Part shown: one piece after another, positions 14,878 through 59,577 of the stretch
Numbering within the stretch: position 1 is the stretch's first letter
How the letters are laid out: every line of letters starts with the position of its first letter
Virus record (IMG/VR): IMGVR_UViG_2703718819_000006
Reading direction: 5' to 3' (one strand)
Length of the DNA: 64,000 nucleotides
Origin: a virus
Taxonomy: Duplodnaviria; Heunggongvirae; Uroviricota; Caudoviricetes
Made by a program: the position numbers and the translations under genes
The notes under the pieces: model-generated
What the model saw: only the letters and a program-made list of their open reading frames with translations
The model's database searches: none
Told to the model about the DNA's origin: nothing

Positions 14878-15542
14878 ACCAGAGCCTCACCAGCGTTCTC
14901 CATTTCATTACCGGTGTTAATAGCCTGCTCTTTGATGATGTTTTTTATGGTTTCTGCAACACGATCTGACGCATCGAAAGTTACTTTGAAGCGCATGGTC
15001 TGATGTTCCGCACCCACACGTTCGGTTTTCTCTCGTTTGTCGGTATCGACAGGCTCATCACTACCACGAGACAACGCCTCCAGTGCTTCAAGGTCGATTG
15101 CCGCCTCTTTTGCTAAAACCATCGAGATTTCGTCGTCATACGGAGCGATTTCAGACAGTTGATAGTCAAGTTCTGACTGAATTTCTTCAATGAAGCGTTG
15201 CAATGCGATTTGGTCGTCTTCACCGTATCGCTCGTTGTCCACCAGTGACATCTGTTTAGCTACGACATCGCTAATTTTGCCCACAGAAAGCACCGGAACC
15301 GTTGAAATTCCTTGCTCAATAGCAGCACGCCAGCGATGTTCACCTCCGAGAATTTCAAAAAATCCACCTTCAAGTTCACGAGCCAAAATTGGCTTAAAAA
15401 AGCCCAATTTTTCGATAGAACCTTTCAGTTTTTCAAAATTCTGCGCACCAACCGAATTGGTGTTCCAGGTATTCGGGCGAAGGTTGGCAACATCAACCTG
15501 CAAAATCGTGATTTTTACATCCATTTTATTGCTACAATCCAC
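14844..15542 (-). CDS. ParB-like (ParB/Srx fold) domain protein
   Basis: 232 aa; N-terminal ParB-type box (EILGGEHRWRAAIEQG). Confidence 0.55.
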   Translation of the reverse strand: MDCSNKMDVKITILQVDVANLRPNTWNTNSVGAQNFEKLKGSIEKLGFFKPILARELEGGFFEILGGEHRWRAAIEQGISTVPVLSVGKISDVVAKQMSLVDNERYGEDDQIALQRFIEEIQSELDYQLSEIAPYDDEISMVLAKEAAIDLEALEALSRGSDEPVDTDKREKTERVGAEHQTMRFKVTFDASDRVAETIKNIIKEQAINTGNEMENAGEALVWLVDYYKERM

Positions 15543-15543
15543 T

Positions 15544-15561
15544 AAGTAATTACTTACTTAT
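15544..15561. promoter_or_regulatory. family-2 palindrome TAAGTAATTACTTACTTA in divergent gap
   Basis: Perfect palindrome between ParB-like operon start (15542) and helicase start (15607). Confidence 0.5.
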
Positions 15562-15606
15562 TATAATAGCCAAATAACATACAAAAGGCACTAAGGAAAG
15601 AGGTTT

Positions 15607-17166
15607 ATGACTGTTCGGATTGTATCTAACGCAGTAAATGCGCTTATTTCTGGCGCAGATGACAAGGTAAAGCAACTGGTGCAGCAAATGTTGAGCTACG
15701 AAGTCGAGACTGGCGACTGGAAGGGCACAAGCACGATGTTCAACTGGAGTAAAAACTCGTTCCCTGCTGGCTTTGCCAAGCCTGTAGCGGCGAACTTGAA
15801 CAAGGCGGGCATCAAATGTGTTCATATCCGCAAAGACAAAGCCCCGGCGCTTGGTAAACCAAATCCGGCGGTTAACCCATTCCCATACAATCCTGATTAT
15901 GCGTATCAGGATCAGACTGTGGAAACACTGGTTCGAGAGGGAATGATGATTGCGCAGATCGCTACTGGTGGCGGGAAATCTAACGTTGCCTGCAAAGCAG
16001 CTGCACGTATCGGTCGAATGACATTATTTTTAACAACCCGCTCTGTTCTGATGTTTCAAATGGCCGAAAACTTCCAGAGATCCATCGACTACCGCGCCGA
16101 AAATGGCGAACCGTGGTTAAAGGGCCAAAAGGTTGGAGTCATTGGCTCGGGTGAGTTCCAGGTATCACGACATATCAACGTCGCTACAGTTCAAACTCTG
16201 GCAAGTTTCCTTGAAGAACCACCACGCGATGCAACACCAGATAAAAAGAGCTACCACCTCAAACGTCGGGAGTTGGTGAAACGCTTCCTTTCAAGTGTGT
16301 CTCTGCTTATTCTGGAAGAAGCGCATGAGTCTTCAGGCTCTAATTTCTATGACATTGCCAGATTATGTGTGAACGCAGACTATCGTCTGGCGCTTACAGC
16401 CACGCCGTTCATGAAGGATTCGACGGAAGCCAACATGCGCCTGATGGCGGTGGCCGGGCGAATTGAAATTAAAGTCACAGAAAAGTACCTGATTGATCGA
16501 GGCATTCTGGCAAAGCCGTACTTCCTTTATCATAAAGTTGCCTACAAGCCAGACGAGGCCAGAATCAAGGCCGAACTTGCCAACAAACACCTCAATTTTA
16601 GAGTTGGTATGAGCACCGCCTACCAAAAGGCTTATCAGTTGGGGATCGTGTATAATTTGGGACGTAACGAGGCCATAGTGCGCGAGGCATTGCTTTATAA
16701 GCAACATTCACTCAACTGCATGACTCTGGTTCGTCTTAAACGCCACGGGCAAATCCTGATGGAGATGATGAAGGAGTCAGGTCTTAAAGTTGATTTCATC
16801 TATGGGGAATCTAACCAGACGACAAGGCAAGCAAAGCTGAATAGTTTAGCGTCTGGTGAAATAGATGTTTTAATAGGCTCGACTATTCTGGATGTTGGTG
16901 TTGATGTGCCAAGCGTTGGTGCGGTCATTCTTGCTGGTGGTGGGAAAGCAGAAGTTGAAATGAGACAGCGTGTCGGTCGTGGCTTACGAGCCAAAAAAAA
17001 TCAGGCAAACGTGTGTTTTATCACTGATTTCATTGACATTAGCAACAAATACCTGTTGTCTCACTCTTATGAGCGAAAACACATCATCGACACCACACCT
17101 GGCTTTGCAGAAGGTGTATTGCCTATTGATGGAGCATTCGATTTTGGAGTTCTGAAACGAGATTAG
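15607..17166 (+). CDS. superfamily-2 (DEAD/DEAH-type) helicase
   Basis: 519 aa; motif I ATGGGKS, motif II LILEEAHE, motif III LTATP, motif VI VGRGLR; good SD (AGGAAAGAGG) upstream. Confidence 0.75.
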   Translation: MTVRIVSNAVNALISGADDKVKQLVQQMLSYEVETGDWKGTSTMFNWSKNSFPAGFAKPVAANLNKAGIKCVHIRKDKAPALGKPNPAVNPFPYNPDYAYQDQTVETLVREGMMIAQIATGGGKSNVACKAAARIGRMTLFLTTRSVLMFQMAENFQRSIDYRAENGEPWLKGQKVGVIGSGEFQVSRHINVATVQTLASFLEEPPRDATPDKKSYHLKRRELVKRFLSSVSLLILEEAHESSGSNFYDIARLCVNADYRLALTATPFMKDSTEANMRLMAVAGRIEIKVTEKYLIDRGILAKPYFLYHKVAYKPDEARIKAELANKHLNFRVGMSTAYQKAYQLGIVYNLGRNEAIVREALLYKQHSLNCMTLVRLKRHGQILMEMMKESGLKVDFIYGESNQTTRQAKLNSLASGEIDVLIGSTILDVGVDVPSVGAVILAGGGKAEVEMRQRVGRGLRAKKNQANVCFITDFIDISNKYLLSHSYERKHIIDTTPGFAEGVLPIDGAFDFGVLKRD

Positions 17167-17168
17167 TT

Positions 17169-17447
17169 ATGAGTGAAAAGAAAACAACTTACTGTCAGGT
17201 AGCATTGTCTGATAAGGCCAATGACAAACTTGGAAAGTTTCAAGTGAAACTAAAAGAAAAAAATATCAAAATGTCTAAGGCTGAAGTCATAAATACCATT
17301 CTGGAACAATTGACAATGGCCGACTTTGACAAGGTTATATCTTCTGTCGGGGCTTCCGCTAAGACTCGTGAGAAAATCATGCGTATCTATGAGAACTCTA
17401 ATATGACAAAGGAAGATCTCGAAACGCTATTAAGCAGATTAAAATAA
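17169..17447 (+). CDS. hypothetical protein
   Basis: 92 aa ORF, start 3 bp after helicase stop. Confidence 0.4.
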   Translation: MSEKKTTYCQVALSDKANDKLGKFQVKLKEKNIKMSKAEVINTILEQLTMADFDKVISSVGASAKTREKIMRIYENSNMTKEDLETLLSRLK

Positions 17448-17473
17448 TCACGCTATCAATTAGGGAGACAAAG

Positions 17474-17938
17474 ATGAAGTCTCCCATACTGTTCACTTTC
17501 TGTTCTAAAACTATCATGAAATACTCGCTTCTCCCTCTACTAACGTTACCAGTGTTGATGCTTACCGCGTGCCAATCACGCCCAATATCAATCCATGACG
17601 CCAAACCAGCACCGCAGGCCAAAGTGTTCAAGTATCAAAGCGCAGCGCCAGCTACGTTGGTGGTAATGAGAGACACAGGTTTTGTAGGAGCTGGATGTGA
17701 TGCTTCCATTTTCATCAACGGCGAAACTGTCGCAAAACTGGCTACAGGCGAAAAAGCGACTTTCCATTTAAATGCCGGAGAATTAATTGTGGGTGCATCT
17801 CTTGAAGGTGCAGGTTTATGTGCTCTAAACCCCGCTCGTCAAGAGCGGGAAACGACTCTGAAGAATGGAGACACAAAAGCGTTCAGGGTGTTCACCAGCA
17901 ATTCTGGTGACATCGACATTCTGCCAACAACTCTGTGA
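17474..17938 (+). CDS. putative lipoprotein
   Basis: 154 aa; hydrophobic N-terminus ending in lipobox-like LTAC; SD GGGAGA upstream. Confidence 0.45.
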   Translation: MKSPILFTFCSKTIMKYSLLPLLTLPVLMLTACQSRPISIHDAKPAPQAKVFKYQSAAPATLVVMRDTGFVGAGCDASIFINGETVAKLATGEKATFHLNAGELIVGASLEGAGLCALNPARQERETTLKNGDTKAFRVFTSNSGDIDILPTTL

Positions 17939-17942
17939 TGAC

Positions 17943-18467
17943 ATGACAACCAAAGATATTACCTACGGTATCCAAGCTGAACTCTGGCCGCGAGATTACA
18001 CTAACGTTGAAAAACTACTGATGTTCTGGCGCAGAGAACAAATTCCTGTAAGGGTCACTCTCGAAGATGGCCAGGCGTTTTGCATGTACGTTTATGGCCT
18101 CATGCCATCTCGTAACAAAGTTGACCTTTGCCCAGCCCCTTTTGACAAAGAAAATCGCATAAGGCTCCCACTTGAACGCATTAGTACAATTGAATCAGGT
18201 GTGGTTGACAGTATCGCTCACGATTTCAAAGGTCGACTAACAGTTCACCCTGATTATGTCGATAATCGGCCATCACGCCGCGATTTTTTTGCAATTTGCA
18301 ACCAAGCCTACAAAGCAAACAAATCTATAAGGGTGTACATGGCGGATGGCCGTGAAATTGAGGGGGTGTCAGCAGGCGCAGATGCTTGTCAGGTTACACT
18401 ACGTGTCGAGAACGGTAGAAAAATAGTTGTTTTGTTCGATTGGGTTGAACGAATTTTGCCTTTTTGA
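17943..18467 (+). CDS. hypothetical protein (start at MTTKD, downstream of ORF-track start)
   Basis: ORF-track start 17865 overlaps previous gene; ATG at 17943 follows its stop. Confidence 0.4.
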   Translation: MTTKDITYGIQAELWPRDYTNVEKLLMFWRREQIPVRVTLEDGQAFCMYVYGLMPSRNKVDLCPAPFDKENRIRLPLERISTIESGVVDSIAHDFKGRLTVHPDYVDNRPSRRDFFAICNQAYKANKSIRVYMADGREIEGVSAGADACQVTLRVENGRKIVVLFDWVERILPF

Positions 18468-18470
18468 GTT

Positions 18471-18779
18471 ATGAAATCGATATTGTTACCACCATTATTT
18501 TTACTTTGCTCAGTTGCAGCAAATGCAATGGACTATAAGCCTGTCATTCAGTCGCTGATGAATGACGTGTGCTCAACGTCTCAGAATGTATCAGTTTGCA
18601 TGTATCAATTTTCGGCAGCCGTAAAAGCAGGAAAAGCGATAGGCGAGAATGTGGAACTGTGTAAGAAAGTGGCAAATGAAGAACGGGCAATGTTGGATTG
18701 CGAATCTAGCGAGTCATCGGCACAGTTCGTTGATGCGCTATTTGACACCAATCGTAAGGCTGTAGAGTCTGTTCAATAA
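18471..18779 (+). CDS. small secreted protein (signal peptide, Cys-containing)
   Basis: 102 aa; N-terminal hydrophobic segment ending ANA. Confidence 0.4.
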   Translation: MKSILLPPLFLLCSVAANAMDYKPVIQSLMNDVCSTSQNVSVCMYQFSAAVKAGKAIGENVELCKKVANEERAMLDCESSESSAQFVDALFDTNRKAVESVQ

Positions 18780-19063
18780 ATCTATAAGGTTAATAACCGG
18801 CTAAGTCCGGTTATTATTTTTCACATCACTTCTTTATATCTACAAATCAAATAACCTAAATATATATAAGGTCTAAAGCCGCAATCGATTATTTATTTAG
18901 GGAACACCTTCGACGATCTCGCTTTTATTTCTAGGACTTTCATCCCTGCAAAAAATTTTAAAAAAAACACTTGCAATCTTTTTTCGTATATCGATAATTG
19001 AACTCGTCGAAAGCGAAGACGCTAACGACAATAAATTATAAATTTACATAAGGAAAAATCATC

Positions 19064-19714
19064 ATGGCTAACATTATCATTTCTAAAAAATCCATCGTTG
19101 AAGCTGCTTCCATTGTATCCGATGAACTGCGCGAAAAAGCAGATCTGGCAACTCAAACATATAATGAACATTATAAAAATGGTACGCACACTAAAGCAGA
19201 CAAAGCAAATATGCAAGCTGCGACCACTAAACTTGCTTACTTCATCAACAACGTTGTAAACGCTGTTGAAGACGAAAAATTATGCTCTGTTTTCTACTAT
19301 GCAATCAAAGCAAGCAAACAAGCGCCAGAAGTATTTTTCCGTGATGCAATGACTAATAGTTATTCACTGGAAAAACTGGTTTATCTGGTTAAATCCATTA
19401 AAGCTGGTAAATGCGTTTATTCCGTCGCTGATATGTCTGGATCTCGTGTATTCGCTTTAATCGATATGATTAACGACGAGATCGACACGTTCACTAATGG
19501 CGCTGTTTTCGATTTAATGAATGAAGCTAAAAAAGCGTGCGAAATTAAATTGGACGCTGGCTATACTCAAGCCAACCAGTTGATCAATCTTTGCGAACGT
19601 CTTGGACTTGTTGAAAAAGTCAAAGGAGCTGGGAGCGCGAAAGCTGGCACTCAGCAATATCGCTTTATCAAGAATGATTTCTACAATTATTTAGCTGATG
19701 CTTTTAAAGCGTAA
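19064..19714 (+). CDS. hypothetical protein, AT-rich accessory gene
   Basis: 216 aa; preceded by AT-rich promoter-like gap and SD AAGGAAAAA; followed by hairpin. Confidence 0.5.
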   Translation: MANIIISKKSIVEAASIVSDELREKADLATQTYNEHYKNGTHTKADKANMQAATTKLAYFINNVVNAVEDEKLCSVFYYAIKASKQAPEVFFRDAMTNSYSLEKLVYLVKSIKAGKCVYSVADMSGSRVFALIDMINDEIDTFTNGAVFDLMNEAKKACEIKLDAGYTQANQLINLCERLGLVEKVKGAGSAKAGTQQYRFIKNDFYNYLADAFKA

Positions 19715-19762
19715 TTAATGGAATCAAGCGCCCACAGTGGGCGCTTTAAAGGAGCTTTAAAA

Positions 19763-19966
19763 ATGGTCAGCTATGACAAGATCCGCGCGGAATATCGCGC
19801 AAAGTATCGTGCTTATAAACTGGAATTAATCGATGATTTAATCGCGCAACGCGACCAATTAAATTTTACGTTTTCTGATTTGCTTAACAGCAAGCGAGAT
19901 TGCAAGCGCAAACGTGAATACTTACGTTTAAGCGCATTAATCGGAAAACTGCAAAATTCTATTTAA
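19763..19966 (+). CDS. hypothetical small basic protein (start at MVSYDK)
   Basis: ORF-track start 19718 lies inside upstream hairpin; ATG at 19763 has SD AAAGGAG. Confidence 0.35.
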   Translation: MVSYDKIRAEYRAKYRAYKLELIDDLIAQRDQLNFTFSDLLNSKRDCKRKREYLRLSALIGKLQNSI

Positions 19967-19986
19967 TTTTTTTAAGGAGCTTAATC

Positions 19987-20217
19987 ATGTTTGTTCTTAT
20001 CGCTGACGTTAACGTCCACAATGAATATTATGTTAATCGCATCGCTGGGATCGCTGGTTACGCTGGGCGCGCAGTCGAGCTTATAGATGAAACGACGCGC
20101 AAAATTGACTTATTGAGCGACCAGGAGCGAAAAAAAGCAGACGTGAACGACGCTGATATTTTTTTAATGTTAAAAGCGTTTGTAGAAATGGGATTTAAAA
20201 TCAGTTTACACAAATAA
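19987..20217 (+). CDS. hypothetical small protein
   Basis: 76 aa; SD AAGGAG upstream; strong terminator immediately downstream. Confidence 0.4.
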   Translation: MFVLIADVNVHNEYYVNRIAGIAGYAGRAVELIDETTRKIDLLSDQERKKADVNDADIFLMLKAFVEMGFKISLHK

Positions 20218-20221
20218 AATC

Positions 20222-20248
20222 GAGCGCCCACTATGGGCGCTTTTTTCG
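20222..20248 (+). terminator. rho-independent terminator AGCGCCCACTATGGGCGCT + TTTTTT
   Basis: Hairpin plus T-run seen in sequence; sister hairpin AGCGCCCACAGTGGGCGCT at 19726-19747. Confidence 0.6.
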
Positions 20249-20699
20249 TTTCCAATACTCCCACCATAACGCGCCAATGATGGCGCGTTTTTATTGTCTT
20301 TAACTCACTCCAACAACATAAAAATAAGCGCCAAAATAACGCCATAGACGCGCTTTTACATCCTTACCAGTACATACCCATTACTTAACACATTAACGCG
20401 CTTAAAACGCGTTATATTGCGCTATAGAGTATGGTTAATCATTGGCTTTTAGTCTTGCCATGTGATCCGCGTTAATTTGTCGGTGCGGATCGGCATTTTG
20501 TTTTGTTCTGTATCCGCTCGCGTATTATGTGCGCGTAATTTTTCACATAATCACACCACTTAATCACGTATGTGATTATGCTACGAAAGAAATCTGGATG
20601 TCTCAGGTGACGAAAGTCATCATAATTTTCCCCGCTCACCTGTCCGACAACCGCTGGTTGGATTCCACCAGCTTCCCGATGTTTTTTCTACATAAAGGC

Positions 20700-20825
20700 G
20701 AATGCAGCCGTTTCCCGAAAAAATCCTGGCCGTTTCCCGTCGGCTCATGAATACGTTCCTCGCCGTTTCTGAAATTTCCCTGCGGCAGCTGGTGGCTATA
20801 GAGAAAGGGCCGTTTCTGGCCCTCT
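20700..20825. repeat. array of GCCGTTTC(C/T) direct repeats (at least 4 units)
   Basis: Seen in sequence; second array at 23835-23965. Confidence 0.6.
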
Positions 20826-20831
20826 TCTCAG

Positions 20832-21314
20832 TTACACGCCATCAAGGATGTGGATGCGGTTGCTTGCGTATACATTCAGCATAAAGTTAGCGCAAAACAG
20901 TTTCCATGTATCAACGCCAGCGGCATACGTAATGTTTTTGCATTTTATTGCATTGTTGGCGATCCGCATCCCCTGTGATACTGCTTCATCGTCGGAAAAT
21001 TTGAACGACGATTGAGTTTTAATCCAGACAGAAATCTGCGTAGCGAACTCAATCAGCTTGGACTGGCAGAATCGCCCGGAGCGCACCGGAAAGACGAACG
21101 TTCCGAATCCAGAATTTACCACATACGCTTTCTCAAATACCCGCGAGTAACGACGATTGCCAATGATGTCGCGTGCAATAATGCATTTTTCTTGTGCTGA
21201 CAGTTCTACCGTCTCATTGTCGCGCCATGCACCAAGTACTCGTTTTTCAATGTCAGAGAACGTTACAGCGATATTGCCATGTGCGGGTGCGTTTACAGTA
21301 GCGATAAAATTCAT
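20832..21314 (-). CDS. hypothetical protein
   Basis: 160 aa ORF with family-1 motif just upstream. Confidence 0.45.
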   Translation of the reverse strand: MNFIATVNAPAHGNIAVTFSDIEKRVLGAWRDNETVELSAQEKCIIARDIIGNRRYSRVFEKAYVVNSGFGTFVFPVRSGRFCQSKLIEFATQISVWIKTQSSFKFSDDEAVSQGMRIANNAIKCKNITYAAGVDTWKLFCANFMLNVYASNRIHILDGV

Positions 21315-21335
21315 GATTAATTCCTTATCGTAAAT

Positions 21336-21350
21336 AACAAATTGTTTTCT
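21336..21350. promoter_or_regulatory. family-1 motif AACAAATTGTTTTCT
   Basis: About 20 bp upstream of start at 21314. Confidence 0.5.
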
Positions 21351-21399
21351 TGTTGGTGTTAATTATCGTTGTACGAATAAGGCGTCAAAGTGGAAAGTT

Positions 21400-21485
21400 G
21401 CGGTAGCCGGACGGGAACAGGTGGGTTTGTCGGTTGCCTGGAGGTAAGAGGTTGGTGTTATTAGCCTGAGGGAAACAGGATGGTC
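21400..21485. repeat. ~30-bp direct repeats CGGTAGCC(G/T)G..(A)AGAGGTTGG (3 units)
   Basis: Seen in sequence; second cluster 24548-24645. Confidence 0.5.
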
Positions 21486-21518
21486 ATTTAAGGCCACCAG
21501 CATTGGTGGCCTTAATAA

Positions 21519-21662
21519 TTATCGCCCGATTACGCTAAGGATCTTTTCCTCAACTGATTTGTTGTTGCGACTAAACTGCCTTGCGTATCTGATGACAGAA
21601 GAGGCGTTTTGCTTTCTGACCATCTCGGCTCTTTCCTTCAGGCGTTTCTTGAAATCGCCCAT
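21519..21662 (-). CDS. possible small basic protein (47 aa, MGDFKKRLKERAEM...)
   Basis: Own translation; ATG 3 nt after upstream gene stop; below ORF-track size cutoff. Confidence 0.2.
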   Translation of the reverse strand: MGDFKKRLKERAEMVRKQNASSVIRYARQFSRNNKSVEEKILSVIGR

Positions 21663-21664
21663 AT

Positions 21665-22081
21665 TTACCACCAGGCGCAGAAGGTCAGTCTGTTATTGTC
21701 AAAGTCGTGGTTCTTAATCAGATCTTCCACAAGCTCTTTCAACTGCCCCACATCATGCCAGTAACCTTCATCGTACTCCTGACTGCCGAAGAAAAAACCT
21801 TCCCGGGTAGGCAAGTACTCTTCGCAATTACTTTCGTTTATGTGCATCAAATGAGCCTTCAGAAAACAAATGTCATTCATCGTTAATTCTAAAAGCTCAC
21901 AATTTTCGACTTCACCTACGTTGCGCTCCATCCACCCAACGAGCGCATTGAACTTACGGAAGTAAGCAACCCGCTTTCTGGATGCCTCGTTATTCAGATC
22001 GTTTTTAGGCTGCGTCTCGATATAGATATCAAGTCCCATGATGGTTTCCTTATTAAGTTGCTTCAGTGAAATCATTTTCAC
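21665..22081 (-). CDS. hypothetical protein
   Basis: 138 aa; family-1 motif upstream. Confidence 0.45.
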   Translation of the reverse strand: MKMISLKQLNKETIMGLDIYIETQPKNDLNNEASRKRVAYFRKFNALVGWMERNVGEVENCELLELTMNDICFLKAHLMHINESNCEEYLPTREGFFFGSQEYDEGYWHDVGQLKELVEDLIKNHDFDNNRLTFCAWW

Positions 22082-22095
22082 AAACCAGATAAGGC

Positions 22096-22110
22096 AGAAA
22101 ACAAATTGTT
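22096..22110. promoter_or_regulatory. family-1 motif AGAAAACAAATTGTT
   Basis: Immediately upstream of start at 22081. Confidence 0.5.
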
Positions 22111-22156
22111 ATCGGGCATAAGAAAATGGCGCGGTTTACGCGCCATTTAAAGAGGA

Positions 22157-22552
22157 TTAAGCGAATACGCTTTCAGGAATTAAGGTGTCAGCAGGAATGC
22201 CGGAGGTAATCCGCAGGCCGTACTGGCCAATCCAGGTAGTGTTGGTATTCAGGCTGGAGGCGAATACGGTGTTAACCATATTCATCATGGTTTCAAACAC
22301 CTCTTCATCAACCTGGCGGAAGTAGTTCTCGATTTTCAGCAGCAGCGGGTCAGTTGCATCGAAAATAGACTGGTATTGAGTCGCGTACTCGCCGCCGGAG
22401 GCCTCACCTTTACGCACGATCGTACTGGCCTGGACTTCGGCGCCAGTTTCGGTGTTGTACGTAACAACGGTGATTTTTGCCACATTCTTACCTTCGGCGG
22501 TTTCAGAGGCATAGTAAACATCAACTGTCAGTTTTTCGCGTTTAACGGTCAT
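22157..22552 (-). CDS. hypothetical protein (start at MTVKRE with SD GGAG)
   Basis: ORF-track start 22618 would include family-2 palindrome and terminator; internal ATG at 22552 has proper SD. Confidence 0.45.
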   Translation of the reverse strand: MTVKREKLTVDVYYASETAEGKNVAKITVVTYNTETGAEVQASTIVRKGEASGGEYATQYQSIFDATDPLLLKIENYFRQVDEEVFETMMNMVNTVFASSLNTNTTWIGQYGLRITSGIPADTLIPESVFA

Positions 22553-22595
22553 TTCACTCTCCGTAGTGTTTTGGTTATTTTTATATTCTATGATC

Positions 22596-22611
22596 GTAAG
22601 TATGTACTTAC
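22596..22611. promoter_or_regulatory. family-2 palindrome GTAAGTATGTACTTAC
   Basis: Upstream of start at 22552. Confidence 0.4.
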
Positions 22612-22642
22612 AATACAAAAAAGCCCCGTAAGGATGGCGGGG
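22612..22642 (-). terminator. hairpin GCCCCGCCATCCTTACGGGGC + T-run on minus strand
   Basis: Seen in sequence downstream of 22679 stop. Confidence 0.55.
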
Positions 22643-22678
22643 CTGTCGTACGGTCGACTAATTACCACTTGCACATTA

Positions 22679-23020
22679 TCAGGCTATTGCCATCACTGAT
22701 GCTCTCTGAATCTCTTGCTGGGCCACGCGGTTAACTTCCATCAAAGCCAGTTCGAGCTGATGTTCCGGCCACATTCTTTGAAATGCCACCCAGCCTTTTC
22801 CACGCTGGCGACGAACATTCATTACATAACGAGTAAAGGTGTTTTTATCGAAAGACACCGCTGTTTCACGGAACAGACGAATAGAGGTTCCATTGGCAAC
22901 GATGTCCAGCAAAGTTAATTGAGCAACCAGCGCAGGCTTCTCTTTTCTCTTCTGGTCTTTGTCCAGACCAAGAACCAATGATTTTTTCATCACAACTCCG
23001 TAAACAACTTGTTTTCTCAA
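22679..23020 (-). CDS. hypothetical protein
   Basis: 113 aa; family-1 motif upstream. Confidence 0.45.
   Translation of the reverse strand: MRKQVVYGVVMKKSLVLGLDKDQKRKEKPALVAQLTLLDIVANGTSIRLFRETAVSFDKNTFTRYVMNVRRQRGKGWVAFQRMWPEHQLELALMEVNRVAQQEIQRASVMAIA
23002..23017. promoter_or_regulatory. family-1 motif AAACAACTTGTTTTCT
   Basis: Overlaps/abuts start at 23020 region. Confidence 0.5.
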
Positions 23021-23143
23021 TGGCGTAAATAATACCAGTAAGAAAACGGCTACAAAGCATATTGATCAGGTGCATGAGCTATATGCAGGTTCTTCACTGC
23101 GGCTATAGAGAAATTAAGCCAGCAATGCTGGCTTTGGTTGTGA

Positions 23144-23491
23144 TTACGCGAATACCTCAAGAAACTCCTGAACGTCCCAATGCTGGACGAGGTGAAGATA
23201 GACCTTAGAAATCACGTCATTTTCGCTATCGCATGTGAAGTAGTACTTCTGGCTGCGGTTGTATGTGTCCACACAAAATTCGCTCATATCCATAAAGTCA
23301 GCATCTTCACCCAGGTCGCTGATCATCAAAGCAGGTGCGTCATCACGAGTCATCAGTTCCAGCACCCATCTTGAATTAATCAGAGTGGAAGACCAACCTT
23401 CTAACTCATAAAACTGATCAAACTCTTTTTGAGTTAATTTCTTGATTTGGTTGATGTCGATATTTGCAAACATAAAGCAATCCTTAAACAA
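23144..23491 (-). CDS. hypothetical acidic protein
   Basis: 115 aa; family-1 motif upstream. Confidence 0.45.
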   Translation of the reverse strand: MFKDCFMFANIDINQIKKLTQKEFDQFYELEGWSSTLINSRWVLELMTRDDAPALMISDLGEDADFMDMSEFCVDTYNRSQKYYFTCDSENDVISKVYLHLVQHWDVQEFLEVFA

Positions 23492-23501
23492 CTTGTTTTC
23501 T
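23486..23501. promoter_or_regulatory. family-1 motif AAACAACTTGTTTTCT
   Basis: Abuts start at 23491. Confidence 0.5.
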
Positions 23502-23834
23502 TGATGGTGTTATTATCGCAACAACGCACAGGCGAAAAAGGATTTTATTCCGGTGAATGTGGTTTTGGCAGTGAGTTTTCAGGTTCAGTACCGAGTACAC
23601 TTTTTACATTATTCTGATTTAGTGGCCGAAGGTGGCTGGTGGGCAGAATAATCATCTCCCCGAAAACCTACTGAAATCGATTGTGACCCGTTGGCTGTCT
23701 GGCACAATTACGCTGTAGTTGGGCATTCAGAGGGAATCCAACGGTAAGTAAGTTCGCCTGCACGTGAGCGCCTCTCTTCTTCCCGCACATTACAGGTGGG
23801 TAGCCGCAACTCTCCCTCTCGCTATACCGGTACG

Positions 23835-23965
23835 CCGCCGTTCCTGAACCGGCATCGAGCCTTTTCCCGAAATCCACACAGGCAACTCGACCGTTTCCCT
23901 GAAAACCTCCAGCCGTTCCTCGAAGGCAACCCAGCCGTTTCTGTAGCGGGATGCAGCCTTTTCCC
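23835..23965. repeat. array of GCC(G/T)TT(T)CC(C)TG direct repeats (6 units, ~22-25 bp spacing)
   Basis: Seen in sequence. Confidence 0.6.
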
Positions 23966-24229
23966 TGTATGGACCGAAGGCTGACCGTAGGGGTGTTACG
24001 GGGGATAAAATCAGGAGTTGAATAAATACGAAAAAGGAGGCGACACCCCTCCTTCCCTCCCCACTTATACATACCTGTCTTGTTCGCTATACATGTTGTG
24101 TTTTCTTCGTGTTTTATCTGTTTCAACCTCTCTATAGGCGTTAATGCTCACTCCTTCCAGAACGTTCTATACGGCGACTATTTCTGTTGGTGAATTGGGT
24201 GTGTTGTTTTCTCTGTCGGTGTATGTGGT

Positions 24230-24660
24230 TTCGTTCGTTTTGCGGTGGTTCTTCTATGGGGTGTTCTCGTCGTTTTGGTGATTGTTCTTCTCCGTGTATG
24301 GAGTAATGGCAGGTGGGCGATTCCTTTCGTTGTTGTGTTTGAGTTGTTTGTCTGGAGTGTGTGGAAGGCTTTTGTAGTTATTCGTGTATTGGGTAATGGC
24401 GTTTCCCGTGATTGTTATGTTTCGTGTCTTTTGGGGTTGAGAGAATCCTTGCGGTTACAGGCTTCGTTGGGTTTTCAGTGATTCTGGTGTTTCTTCGCTG
24501 TTTGGGGAATGGCGTGTCGTGGGTATCGCGCGTATGAATGTTTTCGGATTGCCTGTGAAAGTTAGGTTGGTTGTCCGGTAGCCTGGGGAGAAGAGGTGGG
24601 TCTTTTCGGTAGCCTGCCATAAAGAGGTTGGTTGTTTTTGGGAATGGCATTTGTGTTATT
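24230..24660. repeat. GT-rich strand-skewed region with ~100-bp periodic GG(G)TAATGGC(G) units
   Basis: Four units near 24290, 24385, 24497, 24637; plus strand almost devoid of A/C runs. Confidence 0.5.
24548..24645. repeat. ~30-bp direct repeats CGGTAGCCTG..AAGAGGTTGGTTGT (3 units)
   Basis: Seen in sequence; matches 21400-21485. Confidence 0.5.
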
Positions 24661-25028
24661 TAGTTGTTTTGTTATGCCTGAAAATAAGTTGTTTATATGG
24701 TTGTGTAACGCAACGGGAGCGATTTTGAGCGTGTGTTTTTGTTGGTAGTGTGTTGGGTCGTCTGTGGTGAAAATTGGACGCTGTGGCGCTGTCTGCTGCG
24801 TAGAGTTACGGGTATAAGAAGTGATGTGTGAAAACGTCAATTTTTTAGACCAAATCGGGTGAAAGCGTTGACGTTTCGTTGATCTGTTATTTAGTTGTTT
24901 TCTTATTTGTATAAACAACCATAACCTATTGATATTTAAGGGTATGATTGCAGGTATGGAAGTGGGGTAGTGGCGATCAACGGATTCTTATAGAAAAGAA
25001 TCAAATTGTGACCGCCATTATCAATGTT

Positions 25029-26269: not shown

Positions 26270-28303
26270 TTACTTAACTTGGTGGCCTGGTTTAGCACCA
26301 GCATCCGGGCTTAACAGGAAGATATCTTTTCCGCCAGGGCCAGCAGCCATCACCATGCCTTCGGAGATACCGAAGCGCATTTTACGCGGTGCCAGGTTAG
26401 CCACCATAATGGTGTGACGACCAATCAGTGCCTGTGGATCTGGATAAGCGGAACGAATGCCTGAGAAGACATTACGTTTTTCTCCGCCGAGATCCAGTGT
26501 CAGGCGCAGCAGTTTGTCAGAACCTTCGACAAACTCCGCGTTTTCAATCAGTGCCACGCGCAGGTCAACTTTGGCGAAGTCGTCAAAGGTGATGGTTTCC
26601 TGAATCGGATCGTCTGCCAGCGGGCCAGTTACCGGTGCGGCAGCGGCTTTGACTTCTTCTTTAGACGCTTCCACCAGTGCTTCAACCTGCTTCATATCGA
26701 TACGGTTATACAGAGCTTTGAACGGATTCACTTTATGTCCCAACAGCGGTTGCTGGATACCATCCCAGGTCAGTTCCGTATTGAGGAATGCCTCTGCACG
26801 TTCAGTCAGTTTTGGCAGTACCGGTTTCAGGTACGTCATCAGCACGCGGAACAGGTTAATGCCCATAGAGCAAATCGCCTGCAGATCGGCATCGCGACCT
26901 TCCTGCTTCGCCACCACCCACGGAGCCTGTTCATCGACATAGCGGTTAGCCAGGTCAGCCAGTGCCATGATTTCACGGATAGCTTTACCAAATTCGCGGC
27001 TTTCCCATGCTTCGCCAATCACTTCAGCGGCATCAGTAAAGGTTTTGTACAGTTGCGGGTCAGCCAGTTCGCTTGCCAGCACGCCGTCAAAACGCTTGTT
27101 GATAAAGCCTGCATTACGGGAGGCCAGGTTAACCACTTTGTTCACGATATCGGCATTCACGCGCTGAACGAAATCCTCCAGGTTGAGATCGATATCATCA
27201 ATGCGCGAAGAGAGTTTCGCAGTGTAGTAGTAACGCAGGCTGTCGGCGTCAAAATGATTCAGCCAGGTGCTGGCTTTAATAAAGGTGCCGCGAGACTTGG
27301 ACATCTTCGCACCGTTCACCGTCACATAGCCATGAACAAACAGGTTGGTCGGCTTGCGGAAGTTGCTGCCTTCTAGCATGGCAGGCCAGAACAGGCTGTG
27401 GAAGTAAACGATATCTTTGCCGATGAAGTGGTACAGCTCGGCGGTAGAGTCTTTCTTCCAGTATTCGTCGAAGCTGGTGGTGTCGCCGCGTTTGTCGCAC
27501 AGATTCTTGAAGGAACCCATGTAGCCAATCGGCGCGTCCAGCCAGACGTAGAAATATTTGCCCGGCGCGTTCGGAATTTCAAAACCGAAGTAAGGCGCAT
27601 CGCGGGAGATATCCCACTGTTGCAGGCCGGATTCAAACCATTCCTGCATTTTGTTTGCCACCTGCTCCTGCAACGCGCCGCTGCGGGTCCATGCCTGCAA
27701 CATTTCGCTGAAAGAAGGCAGATCAAAGAAGAAGTGTTCAGAATCACGCATTACCGGCGTAGCGCCAGAAACCACCGATTTCGGTTCAATCAGTTCAGTC
27801 GGGCTGTATGTCGCGCCGCAGACTTCACAGTTATCGCCGTATTGATCTGGCGCTTTACATTTCGGGCAGGTGCCTTTTACAAAACGGTCCGGCAGGAACA
27901 TGCCTTTTTCCGGGTCGTACAGCTGAGAGATGGTGCGGTTTTTAATAAAACCGTTCTCTTTCAGGCGAGTATAGATAAGCTCAGACAACTGACGGTTCTC
28001 TTCGCTGTGCGTCGAGTGATAGTTGTCATAGCTGATGTTAAAGCCTGCGAAATCAGTCTGATGTTCCTGACTCATTTCGCCAATCATCTGTTCCGGTGTG
28101 ATACCAAGCTGCTGTGCTTTCAGCATGATTGGCGTACCGTGGGCATCGTCGGCACAGATGAAATTAACCTCGTGGCCGCGCATTCGCTGGTAACGAACCC
28201 AGACATCAGCCTGGATGTGCTCCAGCATATGGCCGAGGTGGATTGAGCCGTTAGCGTACGGCAGCGCGCACGTCACCAGAATTTTCTTCGCGACTTGGGT
28301 CAT
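26270..28303 (-). CDS. metG: methionine--tRNA ligase
   Basis: Translation from ATG at 28303 ([48 protein letters not shown]...) has class-I HIGH motif and KMSKS (GAKMSKSRG) and matches my recollection of enterobacterial MetG essentially residue for residue; the 43-aa extension in the ORF track is spurious. Confidence 0.95.
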
Positions 28304-28460
28304 AGTAGGCATTACTTCTTTGTAGTGAAAAGGGGCTTGATAGTAACAAAATGGCCTTATGTCTGCCATGTGATAACAGCATTTCTCATAAATGATTAAA
28401 TGTCGTAGCTGGAGTACACTACAAGGCGACAATTGCGCAAATTAAAATAAAGGAGACGGG

Positions 28461-58521: not shown

Positions 58522-59577
58522 ATGAGCGAAAACGGCAATAAAAACATAGCGATCGTTGAAGCATTTTCAGAAACAGATAAAAAGACAGGCGAAGTTGTTA
58601 CGTTGGTTCCTAACACTAATAACACTGTTCAGCCTGTTGCTTTGATGCGTCTGGGCCTCTTCGTTCCGACGCTGAAATCGACATCCAGAGGAAGAAAGGG
58701 GCAAATGGTCTCTATGGATGCCTCTGCTGAACTCAAACAGCTGTCTCTGGCAAAAGCCGAAGGGTACGAAGACATAAGGATCTCTGGCCTTCGGCTTGAT
58801 ATGGATAACGACTTTAAAACGTGGGTGGGAATAATCCACGCGTTTGCCAAACACAAGGTCGTTGGCGATACTGTCACGTTGCCGTTCGTTGAGTTTGTAA
58901 GGCTGTGTGGCATTCCGACCGCCAGGTCATCAGCGAAGTTACGCAAACGCCTGGACAGTTCGCTAAGCCGTATTGCCACAAACACCATCTCGTTCCGTAG
59001 CAAAGGCTCTGATGAGTTTTACGTAACGCATCTTGTGCAAACGGCAAAATATAGTGTCAAGCACGATACGGTCGAACTGAAAGCAGATCCCAAGATTTTC
59101 GAACTCTACCAGTTCGACAAAAAGGTTCTTCTGCAACTCCGGGCTATAAACGAACTCTCAAGAAAAGAATCCGCTCAGGCGCTTTATACTTTTATTGAAA
59201 GTTTGCCGCCTGATCCGGCACCAATATCACTAGCCCGTTTACGCGCCAGACTTAATCTGACAAGTCGCACTATTACTCAGAATGCGACGGTAAGAAAGGC
59301 TATGGAACAGCTGCGAGAGATAGGATATCTCGATTACACGGAAGTTAAGCGCGGAAACTCGGTCTACTTCGTCATCCACTATAGGCGGCCAAAGTTACGC
59401 CAGGCACAAATATCAACAAAAATCGATAATGATGAGACGGAATATAGCCTCCCAGATGAGAATCAAGATGACATTATCGACGTTGTGCCTGACGAAAAAG
59501 AAGGCAAAATGGTCATGTTGAGTAAAGAAGAACTGGCACTTCTCGAAGAGTTGCGCAAGGCAAAGACTCGCAAATAG
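58522..59577 (+). CDS. iteron-binding replication initiator (Rep)
   Basis: 351 aa plus-strand ORF flanked on both sides by iteron arrays with DnaA box and AT-rich tract; assignment by architecture. Confidence 0.6.

What the first reader, a model, noticed from the sequence alone, without database searches (positions are those of the whole stretch)
18780..20250. AT-rich plus-strand accessory cassette with own promoter and two near-identical terminators
Three small genes (19064..19714, 19763..19966, 19987..20217) lie on the opposite strand to almost everything else, in visibly AT-richer DNA. They are preceded by an AT-rich promoter-like gap and punctuated by two sister hairpins (AGCGCCCACAGTGGGCGCT / AGCGCCCACTATGGGCGCT). 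This is typical of an acquired, independently expressed cargo cassette; such loci often encode exclusion or anti-defence functions.
Basis: partly seen in the sequence, partly recalled or inferred. Interest (0 to 1): 0.45.

Follow-up and report, generated by a model that had tools for sequence, protein, structure and literature searches.

The report
Conserved silent phage-plasmid operon, variable tail
This AT-rich three-gene unit is not recently acquired cargo: it is a conserved backbone operon of SSU5/pHCM2/pMT1-type phage-plasmids, with a strong promoter that is silent in the plasmid state of a close relative, a codon-optimised winged-helix protein of unknown function, and a slot of optional small genes bounded by copies of one terminator hairpin.

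Summary
The sequence facts hold. There are three + strand ORFs (216, 67 and 76 aa). GC is 0.375, the lowest in the window. The promoter is TTGCAA-16-GATAAT behind an A-tract. Two 19-nt hairpins differ only in the loop.

The "acquired, independently expressed cargo" reading holds only in part. The window is an SSU5/pHCM2/pMT1-type phage-plasmid. The 216-aa gene lies on 815 plasmids, always between a FljA-like gene and a convergent 160-aa gene, from Escherichia to Xenorhabdus. Its promoter and three upstream boxes are conserved in 72 distinct sequences. Part of its AT-richness reflects high-expression codon bias (CAI 0.45, z 3.8). In the close relative Cyrano (strain LF82) the unit is at the RNA-seq floor during lysogeny, while the genes upstream are transcribed.

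The predicted protein is a helical bundle plus a winged helix. It is neutral and matches no known family or defence model.

Only the two small ORFs are accessory. In 79 loci the slot holds none, one or both. A copy of the hairpin follows every gene, and only the last copy keeps a full T-run.

Most likely this is an induction- or infection-phase, high-output operon for a DNA-binding protein, with a leaky internal terminator. The function is untested. Interest is modest.

The parts
18791..18824 (+). Intrinsic terminator of the upstream + strand genes (stem TAATAACCGG/CCGGTTATTA followed by TTTTT). It insulates the unit.
   Evidence: -12.6 kcal/mol, z -4.4. Conserved in relatives. Cyrano RNA-seq drops from 18 (FljA-like gene) to 5.9 across it.
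18862..18871 (+). Upstream box 0, ATATATAAGG, about -135 from the predicted transcription start.
   Evidence: Invariant in 8 divergent relatives. At least 90% conserved in 72 unique sequences. Also present in Xenorhabdus. No second exact copy in the window.
18893..18911 (+). Upstream box 1, TTATTTAGGGAACACCTTC, about -105.
   Evidence: Its 8-mers do not recur as a motif elsewhere in the window.
18925..18941 (+). Upstream box 2, TTATTTCTAGGACTTTC, about -71. It looks like a direct repeat of box 1 (AT-rich run, then AGG, then AC).
   Evidence: The spacing of box 0, box 1 and box 2 is gap-free in the alignment. The distance from box 2 to the -35 varies by 9-14 nt among relatives.
18950..18998 (+). 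Sigma-70 promoter: A/T tract resembling an UP element (18950-18967), -35 TTGCAA (18971-18976), 16-nt spacer, -10 GATAAT (18993-18998).
   Evidence: 9 of 12 matches. The A-tract, CTTG and CGATAAT are conserved. The UP-element reading rests on textbook knowledge of rrnB P1-type promoters.
19005..19028 (+). Conserved start of the leader, CGTCGAAAGCGAAGACGCTAACGA. Conserved as sequence, not as a helix; a possible operator or RNA-binding site.
19064..19714 (+). p216: core gene for an N-terminal helical bundle plus a C-terminal winged helix. Family phrog_1513, no Pfam family.
19727..19745 (+). Hairpin 1, an internal copy of the unit's terminator hairpin. It is followed by UUUAAAGGAG (only 3 U, then the p67 Shine-Dalgarno site). 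Read as a leaky terminator or 3'-end stabiliser, and as the junction of the variable slot.
19763..19966 (+). p67: optional small basic helical protein (pI 9.7), phrog_6145. The label 'MIT/CorA transporter' in some records is a misannotation for a 67-aa soluble protein.
19987..20217 (+). p76: optional small protein (pI 5.6), phrog_1585. Two alleles about 50% identical. Homologues at 34-43% identity in other plasmids, 47 of them predicted conjugative; the one examined carries IncX4, IncFIA and IncFIC replicons.
20223..20252 (+). Hairpin 2 plus TTTTTTCGTTT: the canonical intrinsic terminator of the unit.
   Evidence: (-15.6 kcal/mol, z -4.7).
20268..20294 (+). Second, back-up terminator with a different stem (AACGCGCCAATGATGGCGCGTT followed by TTTAT).
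   Evidence: -14.8 kcal/mol, z -3.9. Conserved in relatives.

Best explanation
This is a self-contained, conserved backbone operon of the enterobacterial SSU5/pHCM2/pMT1 phage-plasmid lineage.

Shown:
- A near-consensus sigma-70 promoter with an upstream A-tract, preceded by three conserved sequence boxes, drives a 216-aa gene whose codons are biased toward E. coli high-expression codons.
- The unit is insulated from the upstream genes by a terminator.
- In the close relative Cyrano it is transcriptionally silent in the plasmid (lysogenic) state.
- One hairpin recurs after p216 and after each optional small ORF. Only the last copy keeps a full U-tract.

Inferred:
- The promoter is held off in the plasmid state by a locus-specific factor acting on the boxes or the leader. 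It fires on induction or on entry into a new cell, making a large amount of p216 quickly.
- p216 (helical bundle plus winged helix, with the invariant motif D-x2-[YF]-T-Q-x2-Q at the start of the recognition helix) is a multimeric, sequence-specific DNA-binding protein acting on the element's own DNA, in regulation, replication or DNA handling.
- The internal hairpin is a leaky terminator. It makes p216 mRNA more abundant than the read-through message for p67 and p76.
- The hairpin copies are the joints at which the small ORFs are gained, lost and swapped.
For: Identity of the element: 97-98% nucleotide identity to E. coli plasmids of about 110 kb and to phage CMS-2020a; 82% to SSU5.

Core status and synteny.

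Promoter and boxes conserved in 72 distinct sequences, including hosts where the protein is only about 33% identical. The boxes do not recur elsewhere in the 64 kb.

Codon bias: CAI 0.45 against a null of 0.341 +/- 0.028, p about 0.0006. Examples: GCT 16/29, AAA 21/22, GAA 12/13. p67 and p76 are ordinary.

Silence in lysogeny: CYRAN_113 at 5.9 and CYRAN_112 at 5.0, against a Cyrano median of 9.8. The upstream FljA-like gene reads 18, p92 114 and the helicase 46 (PMC9928086 S1 Table).

Fold: AlphaFold2 pLDDT 80 with the canonical a1-b1-a2-a3-b2-wing-b3 order at residues 129-201. Structural neighbours are winged-helix proteins: TubR, MarR, CadC, RTP, PadR, and the winged-helix domains of Orc/Cdc6 and MukE/F. 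The recognition helix and wing hold the invariant residues.

Hairpins: a copy sits at +16 nt after the p216 stop and after each ORF in 79 loci. T count in the 8 nt after internal copies is mostly 3-5; after terminal copies it is mostly 6-7.
Against: No experiment addresses p216, p67 or p76.

The expression data come from a relative that is 91% identical over this region and lacks p67. They do not include an induction time course.

High codon adaptation is unusual for a sequence-specific regulator. It fits an abundant structural, DNA-coating or host-targeting protein better.

The CAI weights were typed in from memory of the Sharp-Li table.

The IMG/VR loci were selected because they contain the hairpin. 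Counts of hairpin recurrence are therefore biased, although the ten loci fetched by protein or DNA similarity show the same pattern, except in the Morganellaceae, which use a different hairpin.
Confidence: 0.5

Rival explanations
1. One reading: a horizontally acquired moron-type cargo cassette, expressed from the resident plasmid, that excludes other phages or counters host defence.
For: The unit has its own promoter and terminators and the lowest GC in the window. The small ORFs are variably present. Carriage of an SSU5-like plasmid was reported to reduce DNA uptake and phage burst in Klebsiella, but no gene was assigned and the authors inferred a restriction-modification system (PMC8969562).
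Against: p216 is core and syntenic across the whole enterobacterial lineage. Its AT-richness comes with high codon adaptation. The unit is silent in lysogeny in Cyrano. There are no defence-model hits. None of the three proteins has a membrane anchor, as typical exclusion proteins do (sequence). p67 and p76 have no promoter of their own.
Confidence: 0.08
2. An early host-takeover or anti-defence protein. p216 would be made in bulk straight after induction or DNA entry and would act by binding a host protein (for example a nuclease, a nucleoid protein or a defence sensor) through its helical bundle or winged helix, not by binding DNA.
For: A strong promoter and codon bias fit a stoichiometric inhibitor. 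The unit is silent in lysogeny. The protein is neutral, and the closest folds include protein-binding winged helices of MukE/F and ORC. The family is restricted to one element lineage (23 representative clusters among 1.84 billion proteins), as is common for counter-defence genes.
Against: Counter-defence genes are usually variable. This one is strictly conserved and under strong purifying selection (75% mean column identity). It is not acidic, so it is not a DNA mimic. The invariant polar residues lie on the putative recognition helix.
Confidence: 0.2
3. A condition-dependent gene of the plasmid state. The AT-rich promoter would be silenced by H-NS or a similar host factor in laboratory culture and switched on in particular host environments, so p216 would serve the carried state, not the lytic cycle.
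For: The promoter region is about 27% GC with A-tracts. By eye, its -10 overlaps TCGATAATT, which resembles a high-affinity H-NS site (a recollection, not tested). CYRAN_113 rises from about 0-2 FPKM to about 40-46 FPKM at 6 h inside macrophages, where no Cyrano virions were detected. The gene is intact on Yersinia pestis pMT1.
Against: Many other Cyrano genes rise to a similar degree at that time point. The boxes are invariant sequence motifs, not merely AT-rich DNA.
Confidence: 0.12
4. An abundant virion-associated or DNA-packaging protein.
For: Its CAI ranks just below that of the major capsid gene (0.60).
Against: It lies 7 kb from the head module, among partition- and helicase-type genes. 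It is kept on pMT1. There is no structural-protein fold match.
Confidence: 0.05

Closest known systems
Phage morons (accessory transcription units with their own promoter and terminator, as defined for lambdoid and HK97-type phages; from general knowledge)
   Same: Own promoter, own terminators and a composition different from the flanks. The p67/p76 slot shows presence/absence polymorphism between otherwise collinear genomes.
   Different: The main gene is core, not optional. The unit is silent in the lysogen of a close relative, whereas morons are defined by expression from the repressed prophage. The optional ORFs have no promoter of their own.
Stem-loop-flanked small ORFs in the hyperplastic regions of T4-type phages (PeSL elements; recalled from the literature, not tested here)
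   Same: Short ORFs separated by copies of one conserved stem-loop, which could act as recombination joints for modular gain and loss.
   Different: Here the repeat is a terminator hairpin without a promoter. Only two ORF families occupy one slot. No recombination event was demonstrated; there is only occasional slot difference among near-identical p216 alleles.
Small winged-helix DNA-binding proteins with an extra C-terminal helix: TubR, RTP, and the PadR and MarR families
   Different: No sequence similarity to any of them. p216 carries a 120-residue N-terminal helical domain that they lack. There is no TubZ partner. DNA binding is untested.
FljA-fliC: a dedicated repressor of a single very highly expressed gene in Salmonella (general knowledge)
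   Same: A genuine Flag1_repress (PF03614) protein is encoded just upstream (E 2.5e-84). It is present in 69 of 72 loci and has the same phyletic distribution as p216 (831 against 815 plasmids; both lack any Acinetobacter hit). In Cyrano it is transcribed while the strongly promoted p216 gene is silent.
   Different: No evidence that it acts on p216. p216 is not a flagellin. The only sequence link found, a 9-mer shared with the E. coli fliC leader, is within chance.

Membership tests
Moron (phage accessory transcription unit) | Own promoter and own terminator | tested here: met
   Conserved sigma-70 promoter and tandem terminators.
Moron (phage accessory transcription unit) | Present in some and absent from other closely related genomes, between conserved flanks | tested here: not met
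   p216 is on 815 plasmids, with per-genus counts matching the backbone helicase, and in a fixed position in 39 of 41 loci. The feature is met only by the promoter-less p67 and p76 ORFs.
Moron (phage accessory transcription unit) | Expressed from the repressed prophage or plasmid state | tested here: not met
   CYRAN_113 and CYRAN_112 are at the floor in LB-grown LF82, below the authors' moron cut-off (PMC9928086 S1 Table). This is a relative, not this element.
Moron (phage accessory transcription unit) | Atypical nucleotide composition | tested here: met
   GC 0.375 against 0.46, lowest 0.1% of sliding windows. Part of this is explained by A/T-ending preferred codons.
Rho-independent terminator | GC-rich stem-loop | tested here: met
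   Both hairpins have 8-9 bp stems and fold at about -15.5 kcal/mol.
Rho-independent terminator | U-tract directly after the stem | tested here: not met
   Not met for hairpin 1 (UUUAAAGG, 3 U). Met for hairpin 2 (UUUUUUCGUUU). Across 79 loci, internal copies mostly have 3-5 T in 8 nt and terminal copies mostly 6-7.
Winged-helix DNA-binding proteins | a1-b1-a2-a3-b2-wing-b3 topology | tested here: met
   AlphaFold2 model, pLDDT 80; elements H129-137, E142-144, H145-158, H168-179, E183-185, E198-201.
Winged-helix DNA-binding proteins | Significant structural or sequence match to a characterised family | tested here: inconclusive
Winged-helix DNA-binding proteins | Binds DNA | not testable with these tools
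   Needs EMSA or ChIP.
DNA-mimic anti-restriction proteins (Ocr/ArdA type) | Strongly acidic surface (low pI) | tested here: not met
   pI 7.58; 27 K+R against 26 D+E.
Known anti-phage defence systems | Match to a PADLOC model | tested here: not met
   No hit for p216 or p76. p67 has only E 0.027 to PDC-M47B.
Type II toxin-antitoxin pair (p67 with p76) | The two genes co-occur as a pair | tested here: not met
   p67 alone in 26 loci, p76 alone in 17, both in 17 of 79.
Plasmid replication initiator | Rep-family domains | tested here: not met
   p216 has no Rep domain. A Rep3 WH1/WH2 initiator is encoded elsewhere, at 58522-59577.

The most novel reading that the evidence does not exclude
The FljA-like gene, the three locus-specific boxes, the very strong promoter and p216 together form an undescribed switch module of enterobacterial SSU5-type phage-plasmids. 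A FljA-family protein made in the plasmid state would act as the dedicated silencer of one high-output gene, as FljA does for fliC. Release would flood the cell with a new type of winged-helix protein that commits the element to the phage mode or to establishment in a new cell. Alongside this, the repeated terminator hairpin would act as a recombination joint that shuffles small ORFs into the operon's tail.
Probability: 0.15. Interest if true: 0.6.

Novelty: new member of a known kind. Interest (0 to 1): 0.3.

Why it matters
SSU5/pHCM2/pMT1-type phage-plasmids are common in clinical E. coli, Klebsiella, Enterobacter and Salmonella, and include the Yersinia pestis pMT1 plasmid. More than 800 sequenced plasmids carry this unit. 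How these elements choose between plasmid and phage life is largely unknown.

This unit is a strictly conserved gene with the strongest-looking promoter and the best codon adaptation among the element's own non-structural genes in the window, yet it is silent in lysogeny. That makes it a concrete, testable candidate for a step in the plasmid-phage decision or in establishment.

The case also shows that low GC with a private promoter and terminators does not by itself indicate recently acquired cargo.

Tried and rejected
- Rfam scan of 15000-24000: only sub-threshold chance hits.
- Pfam, PHROGs, NCBIfam and PADLOC scans of the three proteins: no informative family. PHROGs lists p216 and p76 as unknown function, and the 'MIT transporter' label on p67 is implausible for a 67-aa soluble protein.
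- PDB sequence searches with single sequences and with profiles: nothing.
- Exhaustive profile search of 1.84 billion representative proteins: 23 hits, all the same family.
- Locus search with the deep alignment failed. With a narrower alignment it found one Xenorhabdus locus.
- A 2026 preprint on phage-plasmid heteroresistance was not held. Literature searches found no functional study of these genes.
- Looked for the upstream boxes elsewhere in the window, as a sign of a shared operator: none.
- Compared the boxes and promoter by eye with sigma-54, sigma-28, LexA, IHF, Fis and DnaA consensus sequences: no convincing match (inference only).
- Compared with the E. coli fliC leader: one shared 9-mer, ACTTGCAAT, in a different functional position; judged chance.
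- Considered a toxin-antitoxin reading of p67/p76 and a Rep-initiator reading of p216: both rejected.
- My first count of 'empty' slots was wrong. SSU5-type internal hairpins followed by TATTTTTA passed my T-run filter. The count was corrected.
Full report
WHAT THE WINDOW IS. Region 18700-20400 is 97-98% identical to many E. coli and Shigella plasmids of about 110 kb and to Escherichia phage CMS-2020a. It is 94% identical to phage PhiR41_1, 91% to phage Cyrano (pLF82) and 82% to Salmonella phage SSU5. Matches occur on 778 PLSDB plasmids from Klebsiella, Escherichia, Enterobacter, Yersinia, Salmonella, Citrobacter and Cronobacter. The window is therefore part of an SSU5/pHCM2/pMT1-type phage-plasmid. 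Elsewhere in the window lie an HK97-fold capsid gene, a Rep3 initiator, a ParA/Mrp-type ATPase, an S24 peptidase and a MetRS gene.

CHECK OF THE OBSERVATION.
The 67-aa start at 19763 is the right one: a Shine-Dalgarno AAGGAG lies 8 nt upstream and the homologues are 67 aa long.
- 58 of 68 plausible ORFs in the window are on the - strand. The three genes end a + strand block of eight ORFs, 15607-20217, so they are not the only + strand genes here.
- GC of 18780-20250 is 0.375 against 0.460. This is the extreme of the window and falls in the lowest 0.1% of sliding windows.
- The two hairpins are real and are the only copies in 64 kb (expected 0.11). They are stable and lie within a 31-nt direct repeat.
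- Only the second hairpin has a U-tract. A third terminator, of different sequence, follows at 20268-20294.
- The promoter is TTGCAA-16-GATAAT behind an 18-nt A/T tract. On its own this is not above chance, but it is conserved in relatives (see below).
- A terminator at 18791-18816 closes the upstream genes.

THE 216-aa GENE IS CORE, NOT CARGO.
- tblastn finds p216 on 815 PLSDB plasmids. Per-genus counts track the neighbouring backbone helicase: Klebsiella 346 and 346, Yersinia 62 and 62, Salmonella 49 and 49, Enterobacter 91 and 92, Citrobacter 25 and 25, Cronobacter 10 and 10, Escherichia 217 and 228.
- Annotated regions of SSU5, Cyrano, PhiR41_1, Y. pestis pMT1, Cronobacter sp. JZ38, a divergent Klebsiella plasmid (48% identity) and Moellerella (34%) all show the same order. 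So does a Xenorhabdus contig at about 33% identity. The order is: divergent ParB, then helicase, p92, variable small genes, FljA-like gene, a gap of about 300 nt, p216, zero to two small ORFs, terminators, and a convergent 160-aa gene.
- Among loci from IMG/VR and the annotated records, this order holds in 39 of 41 that are fully covered. The FljA-like gene is upstream in 69 of 72.
- The family is narrow. There were 102 hits, all at least 53% identical, in the word-indexed search. The exhaustive profile search found only 23 representative clusters among 1.84 billion proteins.
- Acinetobacter relatives, whose helicase is 42% identical, gave no tblastn hit for either p216 or the FljA-like protein. 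The one Acinetobacter locus examined has neither gene at the corresponding position.

AT-RICHNESS GOES WITH HIGH-EXPRESSION CODON USAGE.
- The CAI of p216 is 0.45, third of 68 ORFs. Only the capsid gene (0.60) and the host-derived MetRS gene (0.49) are higher. The E. coli Sharp-Li weights were entered from memory.
- Resampling synonymous codons from the window's own usage gives 0.341 +/- 0.028 (z 3.8, p about 0.0006). p67 and p76 are ordinary.
- The preferred codons are largely A/T-ending: GCT, GTT, ACT, TCT, AAA and GAA. The low GC3 (0.35) therefore partly reflects selection for translation rather than foreign origin.

REGULATORY REGION. An alignment of eight divergent relatives and of 72 distinct upstream sequences shows conserved blocks:
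- ATATATAAGG (18862-18871);
- TTATTTAGGGAACACCTTC (18893-18911);
- TTATTTCTAGGACTTTC (18925-18941);
- the A-tract with CTTG of the -35;
- CGATAAT of the -10;
- CGTCGAAAGCGAA at the predicted start of the transcript.

These blocks persist in Xenorhabdus and Moellerella, where the protein itself is only about a third identical. They are therefore functional cis elements. The three boxes share the pattern AT-rich run, AGG, (A)C. With a start site near 19005, they lie at about -135, -105 and -71. Their mutual spacing is fixed, but the distance to the -35 varies by 9-14 nt among relatives. That argues against a strictly phased activator. None of the boxes recurs elsewhere in the 64 kb. This points to a locus-specific factor rather than a global repressor with many operators. 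That last step is an inference.

EXPRESSION STATE. The only data found are RNA-seq of E. coli LF82, which carries Cyrano (PMC9928086). In overnight LB culture, CYRAN_113 (p216) reads 6.9 and 5.0 normalised counts and CYRAN_112 (p76) reads 5.0 and 5.0, where 5.0 is the floor. The Cyrano median is 9.8. The genes just upstream are transcribed: FljA-like 18, lipoprotein 29, p92 114, helicase 46. Neither CYRAN_113 nor CYRAN_112 is in the authors' list of morons. CYRAN_113 rises only to about 40-46 FPKM at 6 h inside macrophages, together with many other Cyrano genes. Cyrano's promoter is intact. The strong promoter is therefore actively kept off in the plasmid state of a close relative. The unit behaves like a lytic-cycle or induction-dependent gene, not like a lysogenic-conversion gene.

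THE PROTEIN.
- AlphaFold2 with an 18-sequence alignment gives pLDDT 80 and pTM 0.67. The model has a long N-terminal helical hairpin (residues 8-39 and 44-68), further helices to about residue 113, then a canonical winged helix (129-201) and a C-terminal helix.
- Invariant residues cluster in two places. One is D164-x2-Y-T-Q-x-N-Q at the start of the third helix and in the wing. The other is the central NSYSLEKLVYL helix.
- The protein is neutral (pI 7.6). It has no Pfam, NCBIfam, PADLOC or PDB sequence match.
- DNA binding is the most economical reading but is not shown.

THE HAIRPINS AND THE VARIABLE SLOT.
- In relatives, the same hairpin (GCGCCCA, loop, TGGGCGC) sits 12-16 nt after the p216 stop codon and again after each small ORF. 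Some plasmids have no small ORF and simply carry one to three tandem hairpin terminators.
- A scan of IMG/VR for the hairpin returned 98 stretches, nearly all at this locus.
- In 79 loci with enough flank, the slot holds p67 only (26), p76-type only (17), p67 and p76 (17, as in this window), nothing (17) or two p76-type genes (2).
- Hairpins that precede an ORF are followed by a weakened T-run merging into the next Shine-Dalgarno site, mostly 3-5 T in 8 nt. Terminal copies mostly have 6-7 T.
- The loop occurs in both orientations (CTA 123 times, TAG 16 times). These are reverse complements of each other, as expected for a perfect palindromic stem.
- Slot content is mostly stable within p216 allele clusters of at least 97% identity, with a few differences. 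That script still used the faulty T-run filter that was corrected, so this point is weak.
- p67 and p76 are confined to this plasmid lineage in the protein database. The exception is p76 homologues at 34-43% identity on other plasmids, 47 of them predicted conjugative. The one examined carries IncX4, IncFIA and IncFIC replicons.
- Each small gene often occurs without the other, so they are not a toxin-antitoxin pair.

MECHANISM PROPOSED.
- Shown: an insulated unit, a conserved strong promoter with locus-specific boxes, codon-optimised p216, silence in a relative's lysogen, and hairpin copies with graded U-tracts around optional ORFs.
- Inferred: (i) a dedicated factor silences the promoter in the plasmid state; (ii) on induction or entry the unit produces a burst of p216; (iii) p216 is a multimeric winged-helix DNA-binding protein acting on the element's own DNA; (iv) hairpin 1 terminates part of the transcripts, or stabilises the p216 3' end, so the small ORFs are made at lower level by read-through; (v) the hairpin copies are the joints at which small ORFs are exchanged.
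- Overall confidence is about 0.5. It is lower, about 0.35-0.4, for the DNA-binding role.

RIVALS.
- Resident exclusion or anti-defence cargo: 0.08.
- An early inhibitor that binds a host protein: 0.2.
- A carried-state gene silenced by H-NS and expressed only in particular environments: 0.12.
- A virion or DNA-packaging protein: 0.05.

The most novel reading not excluded is a FljA-like/p216 switch. A true Flag1_repress protein (E 2.5e-84) is encoded immediately upstream. It shares p216's phyletic pattern (831 against 815 plasmids). In Cyrano it is transcribed while p216 is silent. There is no direct evidence that it acts on p216. I put the probability at about 0.15.

COMPARISON WITH KNOWN SYSTEMS. 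Taken as a whole, the unit fails two defining features of a moron: optional presence, and expression from the repressed state. Only the composition and the promoter-terminator features are met. Hairpin 1 fails the U-tract criterion for an intrinsic terminator; hairpin 2 passes. p216 has the winged-helix topology but belongs to no characterised family. It is not a DNA mimic, a defence-system component or a Rep initiator.

VERDICT. It is wrong on the central point: the main gene is an old, conserved backbone gene that appears to be off in the plasmid state. This is an uncharacterised member of a familiar kind of phage transcription unit. It is of modest interest, mainly as a candidate step in the plasmid-to-phage transition of a clinically widespread phage-plasmid family.

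Noticed in passing
window 17865-18467 (+): A true FljA-family gene (Pfam Flag1_repress, E 2.5e-84, with a weak Hfq-like C-terminal match) lies just upstream of the unit. It is present in 69 of 72 related loci and on 831 PLSDB plasmids, with the same genus distribution as p216. In Cyrano it is transcribed in lysogeny while p216 is silent.
   Followed up: partly
window 18471-18779 (+) and 17474-17938 (+): Two further optional genes sit in the same + strand block: a 102-aa protein with a signal-peptide-like N-terminus (phrog_9536) and a 154-aa lipoprotein (phrog_890). Each is present in only some relatives, so the block has several variable slots.
   Followed up: partly
window 20250-20830: About 580 bp without a convincing gene lies between two convergent genes. 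It contains a motif conserved in relatives (CGCTTAAAACGCGTTATATTGCG, promoter-like) and four GCCGTTTC(C/T)(C/G)G repeats at 20707-20819. Similar CCGTTTCCCG repeats are seen in the Klebsiella, Moellerella and Xenorhabdus loci. It could be a protein-binding array or the source of a non-coding RNA.
   Followed up: partly
window 23859-24408: A second cluster of four GCCGTTTC-like repeats. In the whole window there are 11 matches against 3.0 expected, and none of 100 shuffles reached that number.
   Followed up: no
window 24040-24800: About 750 bp that is strikingly G+T-rich on the + strand (GC skew up to +0.47, AT skew -0.47), with no convincing ORF. Its function is unknown.
   Followed up: no
window 26270-28432 (-): A full-length methionyl-tRNA synthetase gene (Pfam tRNA-synt_1g, E 5e-166, plus a tRNA-binding domain) is carried by the phage-plasmid. 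Its CAI is high (0.49).
   Followed up: partly
window 19727-19745 and 20223-20241; loci L001-L108: The loop of the recurrent hairpin occurs in both orientations among relatives (CTA against TAG, which are reverse complements). This suggests loop inversion by template switching or recombination within the palindrome. The window's first copy has a one-base variant of the loop (CAG).
   Followed up: partly
L008 5001-5222 (CP042629.1): A 43%-identical homologue of p76 lies in a run of small hypothetical genes next to HicAB on an E. coli conjugative plasmid typed IncFIA, IncFIC and IncX4. In all, 47 plasmids predicted to be conjugative carry p76 matches.
   Followed up: partly
window 18970-18978 and L109 (E. 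coli K-12 fliC leader): The 9-mer ACTTGCAAT, which covers the p216 -35 hexamer, also occurs in the 5' untranslated region of E. coli fliC, 19 nt before the start codon. It is probably chance (expected about 0.06), but is noted because of the FljA-like neighbour.
   Followed up: yes
window 19763-19966; SSU5_119: GenBank, RefSeq and PHROGs label the 67-aa protein 'MIT family metal ion transporter (CorA)'. That is implausible for a short, soluble, basic helical protein and looks like a propagated misannotation.
   Followed up: partly
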